Source: Nitriliruptoraceae bacterium
GTDB lineage: Bacteria; Actinomycetota; Nitriliruptoria; Nitriliruptorales; Nitriliruptoraceae
Length of the DNA stretch: 64,000 bases
Assembly (NCBI GenBank): GCA_040904785.1
Contig: JBBDSV010000086.1
Location: forward strand, 288 to 64,287
Direction of reading: 5' to 3'
Shown here one piece after another: positions 12,089 through 36,105 of this stretch; within the stretch, counting starts at the first letter, position 1; every line of letters begins with the position of its first letter. A program made the translations under genes and the position numbers. The notes under the pieces were generated by a model. That model saw nothing but the letters and a program-made list of their open reading frames with translations. It did no database searches and was not told the origin of the DNA.

Positions 12089-12223
12089 TCTCCGCACGGC
12101 GGGCATGATCCACGATCGGGGCCGGATCGCAGCCCATGGCGCCGGCCACGCCGCTAGGGTGCGCGCACCGGTGCCGCGGTGGGGCAAGGGCGCGAGACCG
12201 GCAATGGGGATCGACGGGGGAAC

Positions 12224-13087
12224 ATGCGCACGCATCGATGGTGCGTCGTCGTGCTGCTCGTCGCCGGATCGTTGCACGTGATGCCGGCCGCGGCGTGCGA
12301 AGACGACGCCGACTGCGGCGGCGAGGTCGCCACGCTCGACAACCGTGCCGTCGAAGCGCGGGTGTTCGACTGGTCGTCGGTCGCGTCAGGCACGGAGCAG
12401 TCGACGCCGTCGTGCACCTACGAGCATGTCGCCTACGACGCGTTGACGCCGCCGTACGTCGACCTGGTGGTGCGCGACCTCATCGCCAGCGATGCGCGCT
12501 TCTACCGCGTCACGTGCGACGGCGGTGCAACGTGGAAGTACGGGTGGTGGCGCCCATCGAAGCCCGCGACCGATGTCGGCGCCTTCCACGACGTGCTGCA
12601 GGAGGCGATCGGCCGGCTGGCTCCCGACGCGCCGCAACTTCGCCTGTCGCCGCCGGCCGACCGCCGCCATCTCACCGGCATGCCGACCTGGCTCGCCGTC
12701 ACCCCGGCCTCGTGGCGCACCTGGGAGATGACGGTCGAGGCGGGCATGGCACGCGCAGAGGTGACGCTCACGCCGATCGTCGTCGAATGGGCCACCGGTG
12801 ACGGTCACCAGCAGACCTGCGACGGGCCGGGTGCGCGCTATCAGGGTGGCATCCCGGAGGAGGGCGCATGCGTGCACACGTTCCTCGAGACGCCGGCGGA
12901 CGCCACCGGGGACCACGGCGCGACGACGTTCACCGTGTCGGCCCGGATCCGCTACCGCGTCGAGTACGCGGTCACGACGCCGTTCTCGACCCGCGGGGCG
13001 ACGTTGGGGTCGATCGTCGGCCCGCGGACATCGCGGCCAGTGCAGGTCCAGGAATATGTCGCCCTGCGCACACCCTGGCCGTCGTGA
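12224..13087 (+). CDS. Hypothetical secreted protein
   Basis: N-terminal signal-like segment MRTHRWCVVVLLVAGSLHVMPAAA and good third-position GC. I recognise no family. Confidence 0.55.
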   Translation: MRTHRWCVVVLLVAGSLHVMPAAACEDDADCGGEVATLDNRAVEARVFDWSSVASGTEQSTPSCTYEHVAYDALTPPYVDLVVRDLIASDARFYRVTCDGGATWKYGWWRPSKPATDVGAFHDVLQEAIGRLAPDAPQLRLSPPADRRHLTGMPTWLAVTPASWRTWEMTVEAGMARAEVTLTPIVVEWATGDGHQQTCDGPGARYQGGIPEEGACVHTFLETPADATGDHGATTFTVSARIRYRVEYAVTTPFSTRGATLGSIVGPRTSRPVQVQEYVALRTPWPS

Positions 13088-13117: not shown

Positions 13118-14266
13118 TCAGTACAGGAACATCGGCTTGCCGGCGACATCACGCACCTTGGGGCGATACGCGTCGGCGTCGTAGAGCGCGTCGACGTCGA
13201 CCCGCTTCGTCCCGGAGGTGACCTGCTCAATCGGCACACTCGTGTAGGTCCCGCTACGCACGGCGACCATCCGGCCGTGCTGGCCGGAGGTGACGAGGTC
13301 TCCGGCGATGACCGCGAAGTTGGTAGCCACCATCAGGTCGAGCGCATCCGGTCGCCCCGAGCGCATGAGGTAGCCGAGCGGCTGGCTGATGATCTCCTGG
13401 CCGGTGAGCTGCCGGATGATCTCGCCGGTGGCATGGCCGATCCCGCCGAGGCCGCGCCGGCCGTAGGCGTCCGCGTCGCCGGTGCCGACCGCACTCGACT
13501 CGGCGGGCCGCGCGCCCTCCGAGATGGTGCACATCGCGTAGCTCGACGGGTTGCGGCGCTTGTCCTCCATCAGCAGTGCCGCGAGCCGCTCGGGATCGAA
13601 CGGCACCTCGGAGATCACCGCCCGGTCGACACTGGCGAGGTAGGCGGCGACAAGCGACGTCTCTCCCGAGGTGCGGCCAAACAATTCGATGACGGCCAGC
13701 CGCTCGTGCGAGCCGGTCGATGTGCGCAACTGGTGGATCAGTTCGACGCTGCGCGTGACTGCCGTCGAGAACCCGACGCAGTAGTCGGTGCCGAAGACGT
13801 CGTTGTCCATCGTCTTGGGGATCGCCACGACGGGCACGCCGACGTTGCTGAGCCGAACGGCGAAGGCGAGCGTGTCGTCGCCGCCGATGGCGACGAGCGC
13901 GTCGAGCTCGAGGTGATCGATGACGGTGACGATGTGGTCGGTGAAGTCGTGGGGGCCGGAGGGGCCCGCGGCGGCAGCGAGATGGCGGGGAACCTCGTGG
14001 GTGCGCACACGGTGCGGATTCGTGCGGGAGGTGTGCAGCGTCGTGCCGCCGGAGCGGTCGATGGTGCGGACGTCCTCGATGCCGAGCACGACCGTGTTCG
14101 TCGCGACGGTCGCCGGCTCGTCAGGGTCGATGTCGAGCAGTCCGGCCCAACCTCGCCGGATGCCGATGACGTCGTGGCCGTCGGGCGTCACCCGTTCGAC
14201 GAATGCCTTGAGACAGGCGTTGAGGCCAGGAACGTCGCCACCGCCGGTGAGCAGACCGATGCGCAT
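13118..14266 (-). CDS. pfk: 6-phosphofructokinase (GGDD and PKT motifs suggest the PPi-dependent type)
   Basis: [17 protein letters not shown]..., [28 protein letters not shown] at 14266 was verified in the sequence. Confidence 0.9.
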
Positions 14267-14362
14267 CGTCGCGTCCCATCCCGTGTCGACGGTGGCACGA
14301 GCGTAGGCGGTGGACGGGGCGCGTGGGTGGTGCGTGTCGCCGAAGACGGCTGAACAGCACGA

Positions 14363-15040
14363 CGCCCCGGTGGCCCTTACGGGTGACACCGGGGCGCCGC
14401 GTTGGCAGTGGCACTCTCGTCGCCACCTGCCGAGCCGAACGGACGCCCTTGCGAGCTCCCGTCAGCCCTCGCGTGGTGCGTTCTCCGGTCTCCCCGAGGA
14501 GTCCGGCACACCACGCAGGTGCTCGTCGTGCCGACCGAAGTCGGCGCCACGTGCACCGAGTGCTGTCGTCACCGTTACCGGTGGCGACGCCGCCGGACAG
14601 TCGTCACGCCCGAAGGCGTGTCGCCCGCCGCCGTTCCGACAGCGCACCGTCTCCGGTGTCCATCGGTCGGCAGTCGACATCGACCCGTGGGGTCGCTGCC
14701 GTCCCGGCGACCGGTTCTCCCGACCCCGAAGGGCCGGCGACCGTGCACCTGTACCAACCCGCTACGTCGGGCGGCACCACCGTCGCGCCAGGCACAGTGG
14801 CGCTGCGGCGTCGGTGACGGACCGTTGCCGGTCTCGCACTCCGGAGGTGAGCCTTGCGGTTCTGCCTCCGGCGCGCCGGGCCTTGCGGCCCGGTCACCTC
14901 GGTCCCGTTCACCTCGCCCGAAGGCGTTGCGTCCGGTCCCGCTCCGCGGTGTCCTGCACCGGCCCCGCGGAGGTCGATCAGGGTGCTCCGTAGTTCGTCC
15001 CGATCAACGTGGTGCACCGTAGGTCCCGCGCGGACCTCGT
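14363..15040 (-). ncRNA. Candidate large structured non-coding RNA (family not recognised), or an ornate 5' leader of pfk
   Basis: There is no credible ORF in the interval. On the minus strand there are at least 12 local helices, four capped by C(UUCG)G and six by GNRA tetraloops. Two helices have G-U wobbles on the minus strand that would be A-C mismatches on the plus strand. Confidence 0.55.
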
Positions 15041-15063
15041 GTCCAGAGGCGGGAGGAAAGTCA

Positions 15064-15095
15064 CAGGATGTCCACCGATGATCCCCAGGATGTCC
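15064..15095. repeat. Direct repeat CAGGATGTCC x2, spaced 22 nt start to start, in the ATPase-proximal part of the gap
   Basis: Exact 10-mers at 15064-15073 and 15086-15095, with a third partial copy CCAGGA following. Confidence 0.5.
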
Positions 15096-15346
15096 CCAGG
15101 AATTGCCCTGTCTGGCGCGCACGATGCTGTGTTCTGCGCGCTGTGGATGACATGTGGACGGCGCCGATGGTGTCGCTCGGCGTCCCGCGCACGATCGTGG
15201 TGGATCGAAAACGAACCGGCCTCGCGCCGCGTTATCTTGGGCGAAGGACGTCTCATTCGCGCCCGTGGCCGGGCTGCATGGCCGCGGGCGCTAGCTTGGG
15301 GCGTGGCGTAACCCTGTGCAGGACGGACTTCCGGCTGGAGGACACC

Positions 15347-17707
15347 GTGACCGAGGTCGATCAGACGACACAGGCGTCGTGCATCGTGCCCGACGAACCG
15401 GCAGACGAACCCGATTGGCGTGAACGACTCGGGCGGTGGCTGTTTCCCACCGTCGCCGTGTTGATGGTCGTCGCCGCGGCCGCCTGGCTGCTCGACGCCA
15501 ACGCACTTCTCGTCGGCGCGCTCATCGCCGCCACGATCGTCGCCTTCGTCCCGGCCGCGCTGGAGAGCATCGAACGCCTCGTGCACCGCGATGCGACGGC
15601 CGACGTCGTCGCCGTGCTCGCCATGCTCGGCGCCCTGCTGCTCGGCGAGTGGCTCGCTGGGGCGATCATCGCGCTCATGCTGACCGGCGGTGAAGCGCTC
15701 GAAGCACGTGCGGTCGGCCGCGCCCGCGCCGAGCTGACGAGCCTGCTGACCCGTGCGCCACGCATCGCCCACCGGCGAACAGCCGACGGCGGTCTCGTCG
15801 ATGTCGACGTGGATGACGTGGCTGTCGGCGACGAGATCGTCGTCAAGGTCGGCGAGGTCGTACCCGCCGACGGCATGCTGCTGACCGATCGCGCGGTGCT
15901 CGACGAAGCCGCATTGACCGGCGAATCCGAACCGGTCGAAGTCCGCGGTGGCCAGGTCGTTCCCAGCGGGGTCGTCAACGCGGGCGGTCCGATCGAGCTG
16001 CGAGCCGTGGCGACGGCGGCGAGTTCGACGTACGCCGGCATCGTGCGGCTCGTCGAGCACGCGGCGACCGAGCGGGCGCCGTTCGTTCGTGTCGCCGACC
16101 GGTTCGCGGGCATCTTTCTGACGGTCACACTGGTGATCGCAGGTGTGGCCTGGATCATCTCGGGCGACCCGGTACGCGCCCTGGCCGTCCTCGTCGTTGC
16201 CACGCCCTGTCCGTTGATTCTCGCGGCCCCTGCGGCGATCGTCGGAGGCGTGTCGGCGTCCGCCAAGCGCGGCATCATCGTCAAGGGTGGGGGAGCGCTC
16301 GAGGCGCTGGCGTCCGGCACGCGCGTCCTCCTCGACAAGACCGGCACGGTGACCACCGGCCGGCCCCGTGTCGCCCAGGTCCATCCCGTCACCGGTCACG
16401 ATGCGAACCAGCTGCTGCAGATGGCCGCGGCGCTCAATCAGCTCTCGATGCATCCGTTCGCCCCGGCGATGGTCGAAGCCGCCCATCTGCGTGAACTGCC
16501 GCTGTCGATGCCGACCGACGTGGAAGAAGTCGTCGGTCAAGGTGTGCGCGGCCTCGTCGACGGCCGACGGGCCGCCGTCGGCCTGCTCGGCCTCGTCGCG
16601 CTCGGTGCCGAGATACCGCCGTCGATGCGTCGCATCCGGCGGCGCGCCGCCATCGAGGGTCGGTCGGTCACGTTCGTCTCGCTCGACGGGGTCGTCGCCG
16701 GCGCGGTGACTCTGCACGACCCGATCCGGCCCGAGACGCCCCGCGCGATCGAGGCGATCCGGCGAGCCGGGGTCACCGAGGTCGTCATGGTCACCGGCGA
16801 CCGCACCGAGATCGCCGAACTGGTCGGCGACACCGTCGGTGTCGACCGTGTCCTCGCCGAGCGCAGCCCCGACGAGAAGGTCGACGCGGTGCGCGAGCTC
16901 TCCGCGTCGGGACGCACCATCATGGTCGGCGACGGCATCAACGATGCCCCTGCTTTGGCGCTGGCCGACACCGGTGTCGCCATGGGCGCGCGGGGCGCGA
17001 GCGCCGCGTCGGAGGCCGCCGACGTCGTGCTCACCTCGGATCGGCTCGACGGGCTGGCCGATGCGATCATCATCGCCCGGCGTACGCGACGGATCGCCTG
17101 GCAGAGTGCGGTCACCGGTATCGGTCTGTCCGCGATCGCCATGGTGTTCGCCGCCGCCGGCTACCTCACGCCGGTTGCCGGGGCGATCGTGCAGGAAGTC
17201 ATCGACGTCGGTGTGCTGTTCAACGCGTTGCGTGCGCTGCGTGTCCCGGGTCGGCCGGTGTGGCGGTTGCGTGCGCTGCCCAAGATTCCCGCGGGTGCAC
17301 TCGCCGAGCACGACGGCTACGACGCCAAGCTCGAACGGCTCGGTGTCGTCGCCGATCAGCTCCCCGAGCTGCAGCCGGACGACGCGCGCGCTGCGCTCGG
17401 CGACGTGCGAGACTTCCTGATCGATGAGTTCCTGCCGCACGAACTCGAAGAAGAACGGACGATCTATCCCACGTTGCGCGCCGTTTTCGACGACGAGGAC
17501 CCGACTGCACCGATGCTGCGGACACACCGCGAGATCGCGCGGCGGATCCGGCTGTTCGACCGGCTCGTGGACGACTTGAGCGCCGGCGGTCCGGATGCCG
17601 AGGAGGTCGTCGACTTCCAGCGGACCCTGTTCGGACTGCACGCGGTCCTCGAGTTCCATCTCGCACTCGAGGACGAGCTCTACAGCCACTTGCCCACACA
17701 CGCTTGA
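15347..17707 (+). CDS. P1B-type heavy-metal-translocating ATPase (P1B-5-like, TM PCP motif) with a C-terminal hemerythrin-like domain
   Basis: VATPCPLILAAP, DKTGTVTTG and GDGINDAP motifs. No N-terminal CxxC metal-binding domain. The C-terminal ~140 aa carry HHE/hemerythrin-type motifs (HELEEERTIYP, HREIARRI, HLALEDELY). GTG 15347 is preceded by GGAGGA. Confidence 0.85.
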   Translation: MTEVDQTTQASCIVPDEPADEPDWRERLGRWLFPTVAVLMVVAAAAWLLDANALLVGALIAATIVAFVPAALESIERLVHRDATADVVAVLAMLGALLLGEWLAGAIIALMLTGGEALEARAVGRARAELTSLLTRAPRIAHRRTADGGLVDVDVDDVAVGDEIVVKVGEVVPADGMLLTDRAVLDEAALTGESEPVEVRGGQVVPSGVVNAGGPIELRAVATAASSTYAGIVRLVEHAATERAPFVRVADRFAGIFLTVTLVIAGVAWIISGDPVRALAVLVVATPCPLILAAPAAIVGGVSASAKRGIIVKGGGALEALASGTRVLLDKTGTVTTGRPRVAQVHPVTGHDANQLLQMAAALNQLSMHPFAPAMVEAAHLRELPLSMPTDVEEVVGQGVRGLVDGRRAAVGLLGLVALGAEIPPSMRRIRRRAAIEGRSVTFVSLDGVVAGAVTLHDPIRPETPRAIEAIRRAGVTEVVMVTGDRTEIAELVGDTVGVDRVLAERSPDEKVDAVRELSASGRTIMVGDGINDAPALALADTGVAMGARGASAASEAADVVLTSDRLDGLADAIIIARRTRRIAWQSAVTGIGLSAIAMVFAAAGYLTPVAGAIVQEVIDVGVLFNALRALRVPGRPVWRLRALPKIPAGALAEHDGYDAKLERLGVVADQLPELQPDDARAALGDVRDFLIDEFLPHELEEERTIYPTLRAVFDDEDPTAPMLRTHREIARRIRLFDRLVDDLSAGGPDAEEVVDFQRTLFGLHAVLEFHLALEDELYSHLPTHA

Positions 17708-34005: not shown

Positions 34006-36105
34006 CTACTCGTCGAGTCGCCAGATCGGCCGCGACGTGTCGTCCAGTCCGACGAACCGGACCGCGACCCGGGAGCCGACGCGCCATGGCCCGGACGTCG
34101 TCGTCAGACCGTGCTCGTCGACGACGAGCTGGCCGCGCTGCCGCGGCGGAAGCCCCAATGCACGTTCCGCCGTCACGAAACCCGAAAGGCCCAATCGGGA
34201 CAGCCGGATGCGCAGCCCATTGACGGTCAGCCCGGTGATCGTTGCCGGTTCGCTCTCGGTGAGGAAGCCGCGGTCGAGCAGTTGGGCCCACAGGTCGGTG
34301 CGTTCGCGAGCCTCAAGATGCTGCAGCGCGCCGGCACGTGCGTCGAGCCAACCGGCGAGCGGCGCCAGCTCCGCGATGTCGTAGGGCGGTGTCGTGCCCG
34401 CGAGCATGGCGCGGAGCTGCCGGTGCACCACGAGGTCGGCGTAACGCCGAATCGGTGACGTGAAGTGGGTGTAGGCATCGGCCGCGAGGCCGCGGTGGTG
34501 CGTCGGATCGGGGTCGTAGCTCGCGCGCGCCGTCGCGCCGGTGGCGACGGCGATGAGTAGATCGCGGTCGGCCGTACGACCCTCGTGCTCCGCGGTGTCA
34601 ATCGCGGCAAGCAGCTGCGCGGCGATCTGTTCGGCATCGTCGGTGTGCCCGTCGATCGTGGCGCCGGCGAGTTCGGCGGCCGCGCGCACACGCGCGAGCC
34701 GTTGCGGATCGAGACCCGCGTGCGTGCGGTAGAGGGCGGGAATCTGGGCCGCCACCAGTGCGGTGGCGACCGCTTCATTCGCGGCGACCATGAGTCGCTC
34801 CACGAGTCGGTAGGCGTTGGCATGCGGCTCGGCCTCGGCGACCGTCAGGCGGCCGTCGACGAGCGCCGGGGTCACCGTCGCGCTGGCGAAGAGCCGCTCG
34901 AATGTCACTCGCCGGTCGCGTTCGATTCCCAGCCGTCGCGACGCCTCGGTGATCGCGCCGAGCGTTTCGAGCACGGTGGTGTCGTGTTCGCTGGCGAGGG
35001 ACCGGGAATCGCCGGCAAGCCAATGCTCCACCGCGGCATAGCTCAGCTGCGCACGTGAGGTGATCTGCGCCAGCTCGATCGTCGGGGAGGTGACCGCACC
35101 GTCGGCCTCGACCGCGAACCGTACGGATACGACGGTGCGGTCCGCTCCGGCGTGCAGCGACAGCCGATCTTCGGCGAGCACGGGGTCGAGCATCGGGGCG
35201 TTGTCGCCGACCGCGAGGTATGCGGTCGCCGCAACCGTTCTCGCGTAGTTGTCGGCGGGTGAGCCGACACCAACGGCACCGGCCGCATCGGCGATGTGCA
35301 CGGCGACGGTGACCGCATCGTCGGCGCTGCCCGGCCACGTCGCGGTGAGTGCATCGTCAAGGTCGCGTGCACCCGCATCGTCGATCGTGATCGCCGGCTC
35401 GTCGCGGCGGTCGGTCGCCACCAGATCGGACCCGGGAATCGGCCCGTCGGTGTCGAGCCCCGCCGCTGCACCGCGGCCGCCGCCTGCCAGCCGGCCGACC
35501 AGACGGATGTGGGTCATCGTCGCGGTTTGTGCGTCGAGTCCGGCCGCAGCCGGCCCGCCCGCGACGAGATCGGGTGCGACACGGTCCAGCGTCACCACCG
35601 CGCTGATGGCCCGAACTGCTGCCGGTGAACCCGCGACGAATCCGCCGGCGACCAGCGCGCGGCCCGTCGGCGCACCGTCGTCGTCCTCGGCTCTCAGCAC
35701 CACCACGACACGGCCGGTTGCCACCGCTTGCGCGGCGACCACGGCATCATCGAGCTCAAGCCAGCCGGTGGCGAGCTCGGAGACCGGTTCGAGCACCGTT
35801 CTGCCGGGACCGTTGACCACGCGACCGACGAGGAGTCTGCGGGGTCGTTGCTGGACCTCGACGCGCTCGGCGCTGATCCCCTTGTCGTCGGCGTCCACTT
35901 CGGCACGCACGAGGTCGTCGGACACCAGGCCGCGCGCGGTCGCGGGCGGGACGAAAACCCGGTCTGCCGTCACCGGTGGCCCACCGTCGCGCGGCACGGT
36001 GACCTCGGCAGGTGTCCAGCCGTCTTCGGCGACAAGGTGGAGGAATCCGAAGCCGCGTGCGTGCGGGCGGAAGCGTCCGAACACGTGCATGCAGGTCCCA
36101 ATCAT
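34006..36105 (-). CDS. rnr: RNase II/R family 3'-5' exoribonuclease
   Basis: RNB domain motifs (IDDAGARDLDDALT, HFTSPIRRYADLVVHRQL), an N-terminal cold-shock-like segment (ARGFGFL) and a C-terminal S1-like segment. The start is 36105 or 36090. Confidence 0.85.
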   Translation of the reverse strand: MIGTCMHVFGRFRPHARGFGFLHLVAEDGWTPAEVTVPRDGGPPVTADRVFVPPATARGLVSDDLVRAEVDADDKGISAERVEVQQRPRRLLVGRVVNGPGRTVLEPVSELATGWLELDDAVVAAQAVATGRVVVVLRAEDDDGAPTGRALVAGGFVAGSPAAVRAISAVVTLDRVAPDLVAGGPAAAGLDAQTATMTHIRLVGRLAGGGRGAAAGLDTDGPIPGSDLVATDRRDEPAITIDDAGARDLDDALTATWPGSADDAVTVAVHIADAAGAVGVGSPADNYARTVAATAYLAVGDNAPMLDPVLAEDRLSLHAGADRTVVSVRFAVEADGAVTSPTIELAQITSRAQLSYAAVEHWLAGDSRSLASEHDTTVLETLGAITEASRRLGIERDRRVTFERLFASATVTPALVDGRLTVAEAEPHANAYRLVERLMVAANEAVATALVAAQIPALYRTHAGLDPQRLARVRAAAELAGATIDGHTDDAEQIAAQLLAAIDTAEHEGRTADRDLLIAVATGATARASYDPDPTHHRGLAADAYTHFTSPIRRYADLVVHRQLRAMLAGTTPPYDIAELAPLAGWLDARAGALQHLEARERTDLWAQLLDRGFLTESEPATITGLTVNGLRIRLSRLGLSGFVTAERALGLPPRQRGQLVVDEHGLTTTSGPWRVGSRVAVRFVGLDDTSRPIWRLDE

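What the first reader, a model, noticed from the sequence alone, without database searches (positions are those of the whole stretch)
14363..15040. About 0.7 kb tetraloop-rich structured RNA candidate on the minus strand, upstream of pfk, matching no family I recognise
The gap between the pfk start (14266) and the ATPase start (15347) is 1,080 bp. Most neighbouring genes in this window abut or overlap by 4 nt. ORFs called inside the gap (for example 14402..15022 and 14604..15122) translate to Arg/Pro/Cys-rich nonsense, and their third-position GC is clearly lower than in the flanking genes. On the minus strand the interval is a near-continuous series of helices with specially stable caps. Four are C(UUCG)G hairpins, at plus coordinates 14530-14545 (GCCGAC-UUCG-GUCGGC), 14605-14620 (CACGCC-UUCG-GGCGUG), 14720-14737 and 14915-14926. 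Six are GNRA-capped hairpins: GCAA at 14445-14456, 14820-14833 (GACCG-GCAA-CGGUC), 14841-14871 and 14876-14893 (CCGGGCC-GCAA-GGCCCGG), and GUAA at 14570-14583 and inside the 10-bp helix 14363-14396. There are further long helices at 14404-14431, 14471-14516 (8-bp GCGUGGUG/CACCACGC closing an inner hairpin) and 14942-14973. On the plus strand the same loops would be CGAA/UUGC/UUAC, which have no special stability. Two helices (14720-14737 and 14445-14456) contain G-U wobbles on the minus strand that become A-C mismatches on the plus strand, so the transcript is most likely minus-sense and co-oriented with pfk. Possible long-range pairing exists between GACGCCGC (around 14805) and GCGGCGUC (around 14588). 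I checked from memory for the conserved cores of RNase P, tmRNA, SRP, 6S, the cobalamin, M-box, ydaO and yybP riboswitches, and group II intron domain V, and found none. The size and ornateness fit the class of large bacterial ncRNAs, or an unusually elaborate pfk leader. The terminal 10-bp GC hairpin lies about 100 nt before the pfk ATG and could act as a terminator or attenuator.
Basis: seen in the sequence. Interest (0 to 1): 0.85.

Follow-up and report, generated by a model that had tools for sequence, protein, structure and literature searches.

The report
New large structured RNA beside pfk
The gap upstream of the phosphofructokinase gene encodes a roughly 650-nucleotide, intricately folded non-coding RNA that is conserved in related soda-lake-type actinobacteria (Nitriliruptoria), matches no known RNA family and has no known function, which makes it a candidate new class of large bacterial RNA.

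Summary
Window 15008-14355 (minus strand, same sense as pfk) is non-coding and folds far better than shuffles (z = -10.2, against -5.1 for the plus strand). It carries 4 UUCG- and at least 5 GNRA-capped hairpins, where shuffles give 0.04 and 0.65.

Homologues lie on the pfk side in 10 distinct Nitriliruptoria-type contigs, although the gene on the other side differs. They come in a long form (about 640-660 nt) and a short form (about 450-470 nt). Covariation supports the fold. In the 5' domain, 31 of 65 pairs carry double changes and 92% of cells are paired, against about 40% when partners are slid. In the 3' domain, 14 of 42 pairs carry double changes. Two loop-loop ("kissing") contacts covary: CUACG/CGUAG alternates with CUGCG/CGCAG, and GGUGCAG/CUGUGCC with GAUGCAG/CUGCAUC.

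An invariant TGGACA-18-TAnnnT promoter, preceded by about 120 bp of conserved repeat motifs, sits directly before helix 1. A near-invariant GC hairpin ends the element. No Rfam family matches, and nothing was found in plasmids, viral contigs or the literature.

In one lineage a convergent TauE gene separates the RNA from pfk, and pfk appears to have its own -10 element. I therefore favour a stand-alone ncRNA over a pfk leader. Its function is unknown. I rate it a candidate new RNA class.

The parts
14355..15008 (-). Predicted transcript of the new structured ncRNA, 654 nt. The 5' end is at the first base of helix P1 and the 3' end is just after the terminal hairpin.
   Evidence: The boundaries come from conserved promoter and hairpin anchors found in 10 homologues. 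nhmmer with the profile gives E = 5e-173 on the window, and only at this site. Fold z = -10.2. The transcript ends are inferred, not measured.
15049..15160 (-). Conserved upstream DNA, a probable regulatory region. It holds TCCACA boxes (15158-15153, 15147-15142), a GCGCGC-N13-GCGCGC palindrome (15141-15115) and four G(G/T)GA(C/T) 5-mers about 11 nt apart (15096-15092, 15085-15081, 15074-15070, 15064-15060).
   Evidence: There are long runs of invariant columns in the 10-sequence alignment A2. The motifs occur nowhere else in the 64-kb window and lie at the same place in all homologous loci. A regulator-binding role is inferred.
15040..15045 (-). -35 element TGGACA, within the invariant CTCTGGAC.
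   Evidence: Invariant columns C153-C160 of A2. An 18-nt spacer, variable in sequence but nearly fixed in length, leads to the -10 element.
15016..15021 (-). -10 element TACGGT (TAnnnT), 7 nt before helix P1.
   Evidence: The A and the final T are invariant and the first T is 90% conserved. The three middle bases and the flanks vary (A2). The E. coli-consensus scan does not call it. The assignment rests on the conservation pattern and on the actinobacterial TAnnnT rule, which I take from general knowledge.
14751..15008 (-). Conserved 5' domain with helices P1 to P6. These are P1 15008-14973, P2 14972-14942, P3 about 14941-14900, the P4 multi-branch 14898-14813 with three capped hairpins, P5 14810-14778 and P6 14777-14751.
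   Evidence: RNAalifold on 10 sequences predicts 59 pairs, 27 of them with compensatory changes. With the L2-L5 loop pairing added, 91.9% of cells are paired against 36-43% when partners are slid. 31 pairs carry double changes against 3-10 when slid, and 0 of 500 shuffles reach the observed value.
14989..14993 (-). L1 loop bases CUACG, which pair with L6 CGUAG (14766-14762) as kissing interaction 1.
   Evidence: Paired in 10 of 10 sequences. Five have CUACG x CGUAG (one with a U-G wobble) and five have CUGCG x CGCAG. The two types are interleaved across lineages.
14762..14766 (-). L6 loop bases CGUAG, the partner of L1.
14954..14960 (-). L2 loop bases GGUGCAG, which pair with L5 CUGUGCC (14797-14791) as kissing interaction 2, 7 bp long.
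   Evidence: 98.6% of cells are paired. The variants GAUGCAG x CUGCAUC, GGCGCAG x CUGUGCC and GUACAG x CUGUAC keep the pairing.
14791..14797 (-). L5 loop bases CUGUGCC, the partner of L2.
14518..14750 (-). Variable middle domain (an expansion segment). In this genome it is a run of UUCG-, GNRA- and UNCG-capped hairpins, including 14737-14720, 14620-14605, 14583-14570 and 14545-14530.
   Evidence: It is present as 170-210 nt in six long forms and reduced to 28-61 nt in four short forms. Identity between lineages is only 35-49% and there is no consensus fold.
14401..14517 (-). Conserved 3' domain. It consists of Pa (14517-14470, with the tip CUCC-UCGG-GGAG invariant in the 8 aligned sequences), Pb (14468-14432, GCAA cap) and Pc (14431-14404, GAGA cap).
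   Evidence: RNAalifold on 8 sequences predicts 42 pairs, 14 with compensatory changes. 93.4% of cells are paired against 40-49% when partners are slid. Pb is absent in L171, and L174 lacks the Pa tip motif.
14359..14400 (-). Terminal hairpin: an outer stem GACGCCCCGG/CCGGGGCGUC enclosing an inner GNRA-capped stem. It is the putative transcription terminator or a 3'-end protective stem.
   Evidence: Found in all 10 homologues, and L171 carries a compensatory CCCCAG/CUGGGG. 96% of cells are paired. The scan finds no U tract, so the terminator role is inferred.
14267..14354 (-). Non-conserved spacer before pfk. It contains a TACGCT -10-like hexamer at 14305-14300, a candidate promoter of pfk's own.
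   Evidence: The spacer is 69-223 nt long and cannot be aligned between loci. In 5 loci a single TACGNT lies 30-39 nt before the annotated start. In L166 and L170 it lies at a comparable distance (about 40 nt) if their 12-codon-longer start call is discounted. About 0.3 hits per spacer are expected by chance from base composition, which is my own estimate.
13118..14266 (-). pfk (6-phosphofructokinase), the syntenic neighbour downstream of the RNA.
   Evidence: Pfam PF00365, E = 9e-64. It is 100% identical to a Nitriliruptoraceae MAG protein.

Best explanation
Window 15008-14355 (minus strand) is the gene for a previously undescribed, stand-alone, highly structured non-coding RNA. It is about 650 nt here and 450-660 nt in relatives, and so far it is seen only in Nitriliruptoria (Actinomycetota).

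Shown:
- It is non-coding, conserved and under selection for base pairing.
- It has three parts: a conserved 5' domain of about 260 nt (P1-P6), a lineage-specific expansion domain, and a conserved 3' domain of about 160 nt that ends in a near-invariant GC hairpin.
- Two covarying loop-loop contacts, L1-L6 and L2-L5, are nested around P3 and P4 and should lock the 5' domain into a compact tertiary fold.

Inferred:
- It is transcribed from its own sigma-A-type promoter (TGGACA-18-TACGGT), starting at helix P1.
- Transcription is controlled through an array of conserved direct repeats and a palindrome upstream of the -35 box. The roughly 11-nt spacing suggests a response-regulator-type activator.
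- It ends at the terminal hairpin, and pfk downstream is read mainly from a promoter of its own.

Most likely mode of action (inference, low certainty): the RNA acts in trans as a folded particle. That would be a protein-binding scaffold or ribonucleoprotein core, or possibly a self-assembling or catalytic RNA. Its conserved unpaired nucleotides (the P1 loop flanks, GAGGUG, AGGUGC, the Pa tip) would be the working surface, and the tetraloop-capped peripheral helices would be stabilising ornament. The tight synteny with pfk hints at a link to glycolysis or carbon status, but the data do not establish one.
For: Non-coding:
- No codon periodicity.
- No Pfam hits for the gap ORFs.
- Translations are low-complexity and similar between genomes only weakly and with shifting frame.

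Structured, and on the minus strand:
- Fold z = -10.2 against -5.1 for the plus strand.
- Tetraloop enrichment is confined to the minus strand.
- Many G-U pairs occur in covarying helices.

Conserved:
- nhmmer gives E = 1e-84 to 1e-27 against 9 other distinct loci.
- The profile and the covariance model recover exactly these loci and nothing else in 1.29 Mb of pfk neighbourhoods.

Covariation:
- 5' domain: 31 of 65 pairs have double changes and 0 of 500 shuffles reach the observed value. The slid controls give 3-10.
- 3' domain: 14 of 42 pairs have double changes.
- Both kissing loops covary.

Own transcription unit:
- Invariant -35 and TAnnnT elements sit 7 nt before P1, with a variable spacer between them.
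- The terminal hairpin is present in all 10 homologues.
- In L174/L175 a convergent TauE gene lies between the hairpin and pfk.
- The spacer to pfk is variable (69-223 nt) and carries a positionally conserved TACGNT.

Not a known family and not mobile:
- Rfam is negative in the window and in the homologous loci.
- No plasmid match.
- The viral pattern hits were chance matches.
- It is single-copy in the window.
- The context is a chromosomal lepA-hemN-pfk neighbourhood.
Against: - There are no expression data, so the transcript, its ends and its abundance are all inferred.
- Only 10 distinct sequences from one class were available, and some are close pairs (window/L081, L082/L083, L166/L170). 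Relatedness therefore inflates the shuffle statistics, although the slid-partner control is not affected.
- The terminal hairpin has no U tract, and the E. coli-type scan finds neither the promoter nor a terminator.
- In 9 of 10 genomes the RNA sits directly upstream of pfk and co-oriented with it, even where the gene on the other side differs. That pattern is what a cis-acting leader would also show.
- No protein partner, ligand or target has been identified, so the trans-acting scaffold idea is a default rather than a finding.
Confidence: 0.6

Rival explanations
1. It is a giant cis-regulatory leader of pfk, acting as a riboswitch or attenuator. The folded 5' and 3' domains would sense a metabolite or protein related to glycolysis, such as a sugar phosphate, a nucleotide or PPi. 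The terminal hairpin would then decide between termination and read-through into pfk.
For: - The RNA is co-oriented with pfk and directly upstream of it in 9 of 10 genomes, at 69-223 nt. The link persists although the gene on the other side differs: ATPase, Na/Ala symporter, a 288-aa gene, AAA_16.
- The element ends in a strong hairpin just before pfk.
- The sequence GGUGCAGG occurs twice (in L2 and in the P6 3' strand), and both copies can pair with L5. That would allow alternative conformations. This is my own reading.
Against: - In L174/L175 a convergent TauE gene separates the RNA from pfk, yet the RNA, its promoter and its hairpin are all kept.
- I found no conserved antiterminator partner for the hairpin by inspection. 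The core of the hairpin is invariant rather than switch-like.
- pfk appears to have its own -10 element 30-40 nt before the start codon.
- PFK homologues at 74-78% identity (L172, L176), and all those at 66% or below, lack the RNA.
- At 450-650 nt with a dispensable 200-nt insert, it is far larger than known riboswitch aptamers (general knowledge).
- No known aptamer is detected.
Confidence: 0.25
2. It is a highly divergent member of an already known large RNA family that the Rfam models fail to recognise. Candidates are RNase P RNA, OLE, a group I or II intron remnant, or a 6S/Ms1-like RNA.
For: - Its size, its many GNRA/UNCG caps and its loop-loop contacts are shared with such RNAs.
- Nitriliruptoria are poorly sampled, so the existing models could be biased against them.
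Against: - No family reaches its gathering score in the window or in 9 homologous loci.
- At E <= 10 the weak hits differ between homologues, and none is to a large RNA family apart from noise-level matches.
- No reverse transcriptase, maturase or intron-type context is present.
Confidence: 0.04
3. It is not a functional RNA at all. It would be a decayed gene, a cluster of REP-like palindromic repeats, or GC-rich hairpins that arise by chance in a long intergenic spacer.
For: - Public gene callers did place ORFs over the region in several contigs.
- GC-rich DNA folds well on both strands, and the plus strand also scores z = -5.1.
Against: - There is no codon periodicity and no protein-family hit.
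- Compensatory changes preserve the helices and two loop-loop contacts.
- It is single-copy in 64 kb.
- Conservation stops sharply at the promoter and at the hairpin, and the flanking spacers cannot be aligned.
- The tetraloop excess is strand-specific.
Confidence: 0.02

Closest known systems
OLE RNA (ornate, large, extremophilic; Rfam RF01071)
   Same: It is about 600 nt, has an intricate multi-helix secondary structure with conserved single-stranded stretches, and is a stand-alone gene. It occurs in extremophiles including alkali-halophiles. Its biochemical function is still unknown, and it acts as part of a ribonucleoprotein (PMC9723947, PMC12265935).
   Different: The Rfam search, which includes RF01071, returned no OLE hit even at E <= 10. 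OLE belongs to Bacillota, not Actinomycetota. OLE sits with the oap genes, for which I did not search. The present RNA is next to pfk. Its helix order and its two nested kissing loops were worked out here and were not compared with OLE.
ROOL and GOLLD RNAs
   Same: These are large (about 580-800 nt) ornate bacterial RNAs without a known function. Their architecture depends on loop-loop and other tertiary contacts (PMC12286853).
   Different: ROOL and GOLLD form homo-oligomeric cages and are often phage- or prophage-associated. Here the context is a chromosomal housekeeping neighbourhood. There is no Rfam match. Nothing here shows whether the kissing loops are intra- or intermolecular. I modelled them as intramolecular.
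raiA motif RNA (Rfam RF03072)
   Same: It is a structured ncRNA of unknown function that also occurs in Actinomycetota. It is a stand-alone gene near a conserved protein-coding neighbour (PMC10861870, PMC12968392).
   Different: raiA is about 200 nt and widespread (more than 2,500 species). The present RNA is 450-660 nt and, so far, confined to Nitriliruptoria. The Rfam search, which includes RF03072, returned no raiA hit.
Riboswitch or attenuator leaders with kissing loops (for example the cobalamin L5-L13 contact or the lysine L2-L3 contact)
   Same: It lies upstream of a metabolic gene and is co-oriented with it. It has a loop-loop tertiary contact and ends in a GC hairpin.
   Different: It is two to three times larger. 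No known aptamer is detected. No alternative pairing to the hairpin was found. One lineage has another gene between the RNA and pfk. The GCCACUG string in P5 is part of a covarying stem-loop, not a B12 box.

Membership tests
Any Rfam 15 family (4,227 covariance models) | Score at or above the family's gathering threshold. | tested here: not met
   There are 0 hits in the whole window and 0 in 9 homologous loci totalling 71 kb. At E <= 10 only noise appears, at 9-22 bits against thresholds of 34-178, and the families differ between homologues.
Structured functional RNA (general) | Conservation of base pairing through compensatory changes in independent lineages. | tested here: met
   5' domain: 31 of 65 pairs carry double changes, 91.9% of cells are paired against 36-43% when partners are slid, and 0 of 500 shuffles reach the observed value. 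3' domain: 14 of 42 pairs carry double changes, and 93.4% of cells are paired against 40-49%. Caveat: only 10 and 8 sequences were available, and some are closely related.
Riboswitch / cis-regulatory leader of pfk | It lies in the 5' UTR of the regulated gene in all representatives. | tested here: not met
   This is true in 9 of 10 genomes. In L174/L175 a convergent TauE gene (2141-2893) lies between the RNA end (2098) and pfk (3001). A candidate pfk -10 element lies in the spacer.
Riboswitch / cis-regulatory leader of pfk | An expression platform with mutually exclusive terminator and antiterminator pairings. | tested here: inconclusive
   I found no conserved partner for the CCCCGG/CCGGGG stem by inspecting the folds and alignments. 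No dedicated search for alternative structures was run.
Riboswitch / cis-regulatory leader of pfk | Specific ligand binding by the conserved domain. | not testable with these tools
   This needs in-line probing, ITC or SHAPE with candidate metabolites.
Intrinsic (Rho-independent) terminator | A GC-rich hairpin followed by a U tract. | tested here: not met
   The hairpin is present and conserved. The scan finds no terminator-like site with a T run. The tails read GUCGUGCUGUUC here and GUCGUCUUUUUC in L081. Whether actinobacteria accept U-poor terminators rests on general knowledge and was not tested here.
Sigma-70/sigma-A promoter | -35 and -10 hexamers at 16-18 nt spacing. | tested here: inconclusive
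   The E. coli-consensus scan finds none. The comparative pattern fits: TGGACA and the A and final T of TAnnnT are invariant, the 17-18-nt spacer is variable in sequence, and the -10 element lies 7 nt before P1. No transcription-start data exist.
Protein-coding gene or pseudogene | Codon-position bias and similarity to a protein family. | tested here: not met
   The spread of GC between codon positions is 0.02-0.15, against 0.3-0.5 in the neighbouring genes. The three longest gap ORFs have no Pfam hit. Translations are similar between genomes only weakly and with shifting frame. A full blastx against all proteins was not run.
Repeat or mobile element (REP/MITE-like, plasmid or phage borne) | Multiple copies, or presence on mobile replicons. 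| tested here: not met
   It is single-copy in the window. No plasmid match was found. The 8 viral pattern matches fail the covariance model.
OLE / ROOL / GOLLD-type large ornate ncRNA (a descriptive kind, not a homologous family) | Longer than 400 nt, many conserved helices plus tertiary contacts, a stand-alone gene, no coding capacity. | tested here: met
   The RNA is 450-660 nt. It has at least 15 helices, two covarying kissing loops, and its own promoter and hairpin. Homology to those families was tested and not met.

The most novel reading that the evidence does not exclude
The RNA is a new class of large functional RNA that links carbon or energy status to glycolysis. One form of this idea is that it directly senses a glycolytic metabolite or nucleotide and controls pfk, which would make it the first RNA sensor for central glycolysis and by far the largest riboswitch-like element. 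The other is that it works as a catalytic or self-assembling particle whose double kissing-loop core is a new tertiary architecture.
Probability: 0.12. Interest if true: 0.9.

Novelty: categorically new. Interest (0 to 1): 0.75.

Why it matters
Large, intricately folded bacterial RNAs are rare. Every class whose function has been solved turned out to carry out fundamental biochemistry: the ribosome, RNase P, tmRNA, group I and II introns, and riboswitches. The unsolved classes (OLE, ROOL, GOLLD, raiA) are active research targets.

This element would add a new class from a barely studied actinobacterial lineage. It comes with a well-defined core, two covarying tertiary contacts that give a testable 3D model, natural long and short forms that mark out the dispensable part, and a conspicuously conserved promoter region that should reveal when the RNA is made. 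Its fixed position next to pfk offers a concrete first hypothesis to test.

On a practical level, public annotations currently place spurious hypothetical proteins over it.

Tried and rejected
1. An exact look-up of the window's PFK protein found nothing, although the same 382-aa protein later came back from the homology search as P0001.
None carries the RNA. Those two capped scans were therefore largely wasted. The useful loci came from the search for homologous proteins followed by the look-up of encoding contigs.
3. Rfam found nothing at the gathering threshold or at E <= 10, in the window or in homologues. The weak sbcD and atpB hits at 15167-15298 lie upstream of the promoter, in a stretch that is not conserved and does not fold better than shuffles.
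4. The cobalamin-like string GCCACUG in P5 was rejected. It is a covarying stem-loop whose loop forms the L2-L5 contact.
6. A consensus fold for the middle domain could not be built. The lineages are only 35-49% identical there and RNAalifold finds almost nothing.
7. The E. coli-type promoter and terminator scan found nothing.
8. A plasmid blastn search and a viral-contig pattern scan gave nothing or chance matches.
9. Four literature searches (Nitriliruptor or Euzebya with ncRNA, pfk motif or leader, large ornate RNAs) found no description of this element.
10. I considered spending a protein-database search on the gap ORFs, as a blastx surrogate, and decided against it. The translations are low-complexity, and any hits would be spurious ORF calls on the same RNA.
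Full report
**What is in the window.** The 1,080-bp gap lies between pfk (13118-14266, minus strand; Pfam PFK, E = 9e-64) and a divergent P-type ATPase with a C-terminal hemerythrin domain (15347-17707, plus strand). The gap is non-coding. The spread of GC content between codon positions is 0.3-0.5 inside both genes and falls to 0.02-0.15 across 14400-15150. The ORFs that can be drawn in the gap have no Pfam hit. Their translations are Arg/Pro/Ala-rich strings that are similar between genomes only weakly and with shifting frame.

On the minus strand there are four C(UUCG)G hairpins and five GNRA hairpins with stems of at least 4 bp. Dinucleotide shuffles give means of 0.04 and 0.65, and the plus strand has none and one. 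The minus strand of 14340-15060 folds 10 standard deviations better than shuffles, against 5 for the plus strand. The rest of the gap, 15160-15346, folds no better than chance.

**Source organism and relatives.** The PFK protein is identical to one from a Nitriliruptoraceae MAG, in the class Nitriliruptoria of the phylum Actinomycetota. PFK-anchored scans of the genome and metagenome collections returned only relatives at 66% identity or below, from many phyla, and none carries anything like the gap sequence.

I then fetched contigs for the closer PFK homologues at 72-83% identity. This gave nine further distinct loci with a homologous element: L081, L082, L083, L164, L165, L166 (with near-identical copies L167-L169), L170, L171 and L174 (L175 is the same). 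nhmmer E-values run from 1e-84 to 1e-27. The element is always on the pfk strand and upstream of pfk. The gene on its other side differs: ATPase, Na/Ala symporter, a 288-aa gene, or AAA_16. PFK loci at 74-78% identity (L172/L173, L176) have short upstream gaps and no element.

**Ends of the element.** The alignments (A1 and A2) show conservation that starts and stops sharply.

- *5' side.* An invariant CTCTGGAC(A) is followed by a 17-18-nt spacer of variable sequence. Next comes a hexamer in which only the first T (90% conserved), the A and the last T are conserved (TAnnnT; TACGGT at 15021-15016). Seven variable bases follow, and then the first helix begins. This is the pattern expected of an actinobacterial sigma-A promoter, with transcription starting at about 15008. 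That rule is general knowledge, and an E. coli-consensus scan does not call the site.
- *3' side.* All ten sequences end in the same hairpin. CCCCGG and CCGGGG flank a small GNRA-capped stem, and the outer stem is extended by GACG/CGUC (window 14400-14359). L171 carries the compensatory CCCCAG/CUGGGG. No U tract follows, so a terminator role is inferred.

The predicted RNA is 654 nt here. Relatives fall into long forms of 639-660 nt and short forms of 448-470 nt.

**Architecture and covariation.**

- *5' domain.* About 260 nt (15008-14751) align well in all ten sequences. RNAalifold predicts helices P1 to P6. 27 of the 59 predicted pairs keep pairing through changes on both sides.
- *First loop contact, L2-L5.* By eye I found that the P2 loop (GGUGCAG, 14960-14954) is complementary to the P5 loop (CUGUGCC, 14797-14791). 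The two covary: GAUGCAG with CUGCAUC, GGCGCAG with CUGUGCC, and GUACAG with CUGUAC. With this contact added, 91.9% of all pair cells are standard pairs, against 36-43% when the partners are slid by 1-3 columns. 31 pairs carry double changes, against 3-10 when slid. None of 500 shuffles reaches the observed values.
- *Second loop contact, L1-L6.* L1 (CUACG, 14993-14989) pairs with L6 (CGUAG, 14766-14762) in all ten sequences. Five have the CUACG/CGUAG type, one of them with a U-G wobble, and five have CUGCG/CGCAG. The two types are interleaved among lineages. The two contacts are nested around P3 and P4, which implies a compact fold.
- *3' domain.* The region 14517-14355 contains hairpins Pa, Pb and Pc. 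The Pa tip CUCC-UCGG-GGAG is invariant in the 8 aligned sequences. Pb carries a GCAA cap and Pc a GAGA cap. Together with the terminal hairpin, 14 of 42 pairs have double changes, and 93.4% of cells are paired against 40-49% when slid.
- *Middle domain.* Between the two lies a middle domain (14750-14518). It is 170-210 nt in long forms and 28-61 nt in short forms. Identity between lineages is only 35-49% and there is no consensus fold. It behaves like an expansion segment.
- *Tetraloops.* Loop types are exchanged at homologous helix tips, for example GCAA, GCGA and UUCG at the P4b tip. This fits selection for stable caps at the RNA level.
- *Strand.* Frequent G-U pairs inside covarying helices, the tetraloops and the promoter orientation all fix the strand as minus.

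**Leader or independent gene.** The constant position upstream of pfk is what a cis-acting leader would show. Four points argue against an obligatory leader.

1. In L174/L175 a convergent TauE gene (2141-2893) lies between the RNA's hairpin (ending at 2098) and pfk (3001). The promoter, the 5' domain (covariance model, 48.5 bits) and the hairpin are nevertheless all kept.
2. The spacer between the hairpin and pfk is 69-223 nt long and cannot be aligned. In five loci it contains a single TACGNT hexamer 30-39 nt before the annotated start codon. In L166 and L170 the hexamer lies at a comparable distance (about 40 nt) once their 12-codon-longer start call is discounted. In the window it is at 14305-14300. 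This looks like a -10 element belonging to pfk itself.
3. I found no conserved alternative partner for the hairpin, and its core is invariant rather than switch-like.
4. The roughly 120 bp upstream of the -35 box are as conserved as the RNA itself. They hold two TCCACA boxes, a GCGCGC-N13-GCGCGC palindrome and four G(G/T)GA(C/T) 5-mers about 11 nt apart. This points to control at transcription initiation. The spacing recalls sites for OmpR/PhoB-type response regulators, and the boxes recall DnaA or MtrA boxes. Both resemblances come from memory and are untested.

On balance I give a stand-alone RNA about 0.6 and a pfk leader about 0.25.

**Comparison with what is known.**

- No Rfam 15 family reaches threshold in the window or in nine homologous loci.
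- At E <= 10 the weak hits are noise and differ between homologues.
- A covariance model of P1-P3 finds only the known loci in 1.29 Mb of pfk neighbourhoods.
- There is no plasmid match.
- Eight viral pattern matches fail the model.
- The element is single-copy in the window.
- It lies in a chromosomal lepA-DUF1269-hemN-pfk neighbourhood.
- Four literature searches found no description of it.

In kind it resembles the large ornate bacterial RNAs OLE, ROOL, GOLLD and raiA (PMC9723947, PMC12286853, PMC10861870). It shares their size, complexity and tertiary contacts, it is a stand-alone gene, and its function is unknown. It shares no detectable homology, taxon or gene context with any of them.

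**Verdict and limits.** This is a real, conserved, covariation-supported structured RNA of a family not described before.

- the 5' end is at about 15008;
- the proposed long-range pairing is not supported;
- the stand-alone reading is favoured over the leader reading.

The limits are these. Only ten distinct sequences, from one class, were available. There are no expression data. The ends are inferred. The function is unknown. The mode of action I commit to is a trans-acting folded particle or ribonucleoprotein scaffold, expressed under a dedicated regulator. That is an inference from the anatomy, not a result.

Noticed in passing
window 15160-15040 (minus strand): About 120 bp of DNA upstream of the RNA's -35 box is as conserved as the RNA itself across the ten genomes. 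It holds two TCCACA boxes, a GCGCGC-N13-GCGCGC palindrome and four G(G/T)GA(C/T) 5-mers about 11 nt apart. The motifs occur nowhere else in the 64-kb window. L166 and L170 carry a duplicated CCTGTGACTT. The array resembles response-regulator, DnaA-box or MtrA-box sites, but that resemblance is from memory only.
   Followed up: partly
L164 1845-2999(-), L170 951-1715(-), L081 4062-4376(-), L168 2442-3068(+): Public gene calls place hypothetical proteins of up to 384 aa, with no Pfam hit, directly over the RNA or antisense to it. These are almost certainly spurious ORFs in GC-rich structured RNA.
   Followed up: partly
window 14751-14760 and 14954-14960, compared with 14791-14797: The sequence GGUGCAGG of loop L2 recurs in the P6 3' strand and J6/7 (GGUACAGGUGC here). 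In most homologues the second copy is also complementary to loop L5. This allows an alternative pairing, a possible conformational switch. I did not test it.
   Followed up: no
window 14359-14400: The core of the terminal hairpin, CCCCGG/CCGGGG, is identical in 9 of 10 genomes, and the tenth carries a compensatory change. That is unusually strong conservation for a mere terminator. It suggests sequence-specific recognition or a structural role in the RNA.
   Followed up: partly
window 14300-14305 and the equivalent spacers of L081, L082, L083, L164, L166, L170: A single TACGNT hexamer lies 30-40 nt before the pfk start codon, in spacers that otherwise cannot be aligned. It is a candidate -10 element of a promoter belonging to pfk itself.
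   Followed up: partly
window 15347-17707 (+): This is a P-type (E1-E2) ATPase with a C-terminal hemerythrin domain. The same fusion neighbours the RNA in L082, L083 and L165.
   Followed up: no
window 12179-13087 (+): A 302-aa ORF with no Pfam hit lies convergent with pfk. A similarly placed gene of 270-320 aa without Pfam domains follows pfk in most related loci.
   Followed up: no
window 15167-15298: There are sub-threshold Rfam hits to the sbcD RNA (22 bits, E = 0.08, plus strand) and the atpB RNA (18.5 bits, E = 0.17, minus strand). This stretch is not conserved in the relatives and does not fold better than shuffles, so the hits are probably noise.
   Followed up: yes
L172/L173 3001-5183: Two pfk paralogues lie in tandem with overlapping stop and start codons. 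They come from a relative whose PFK is 69% identical to the window's (74% to the closest RNA-bearing homologue), and no RNA element lies upstream.
   Followed up: no
window 14335-14356 and 36013-36034: A 22-nt near-identical match (21 of 22, E = 0.001) covers a small GCCG-UCUU-CGGC hairpin just after the RNA's terminal hairpin. It is probably a chance match.
   Followed up: partly
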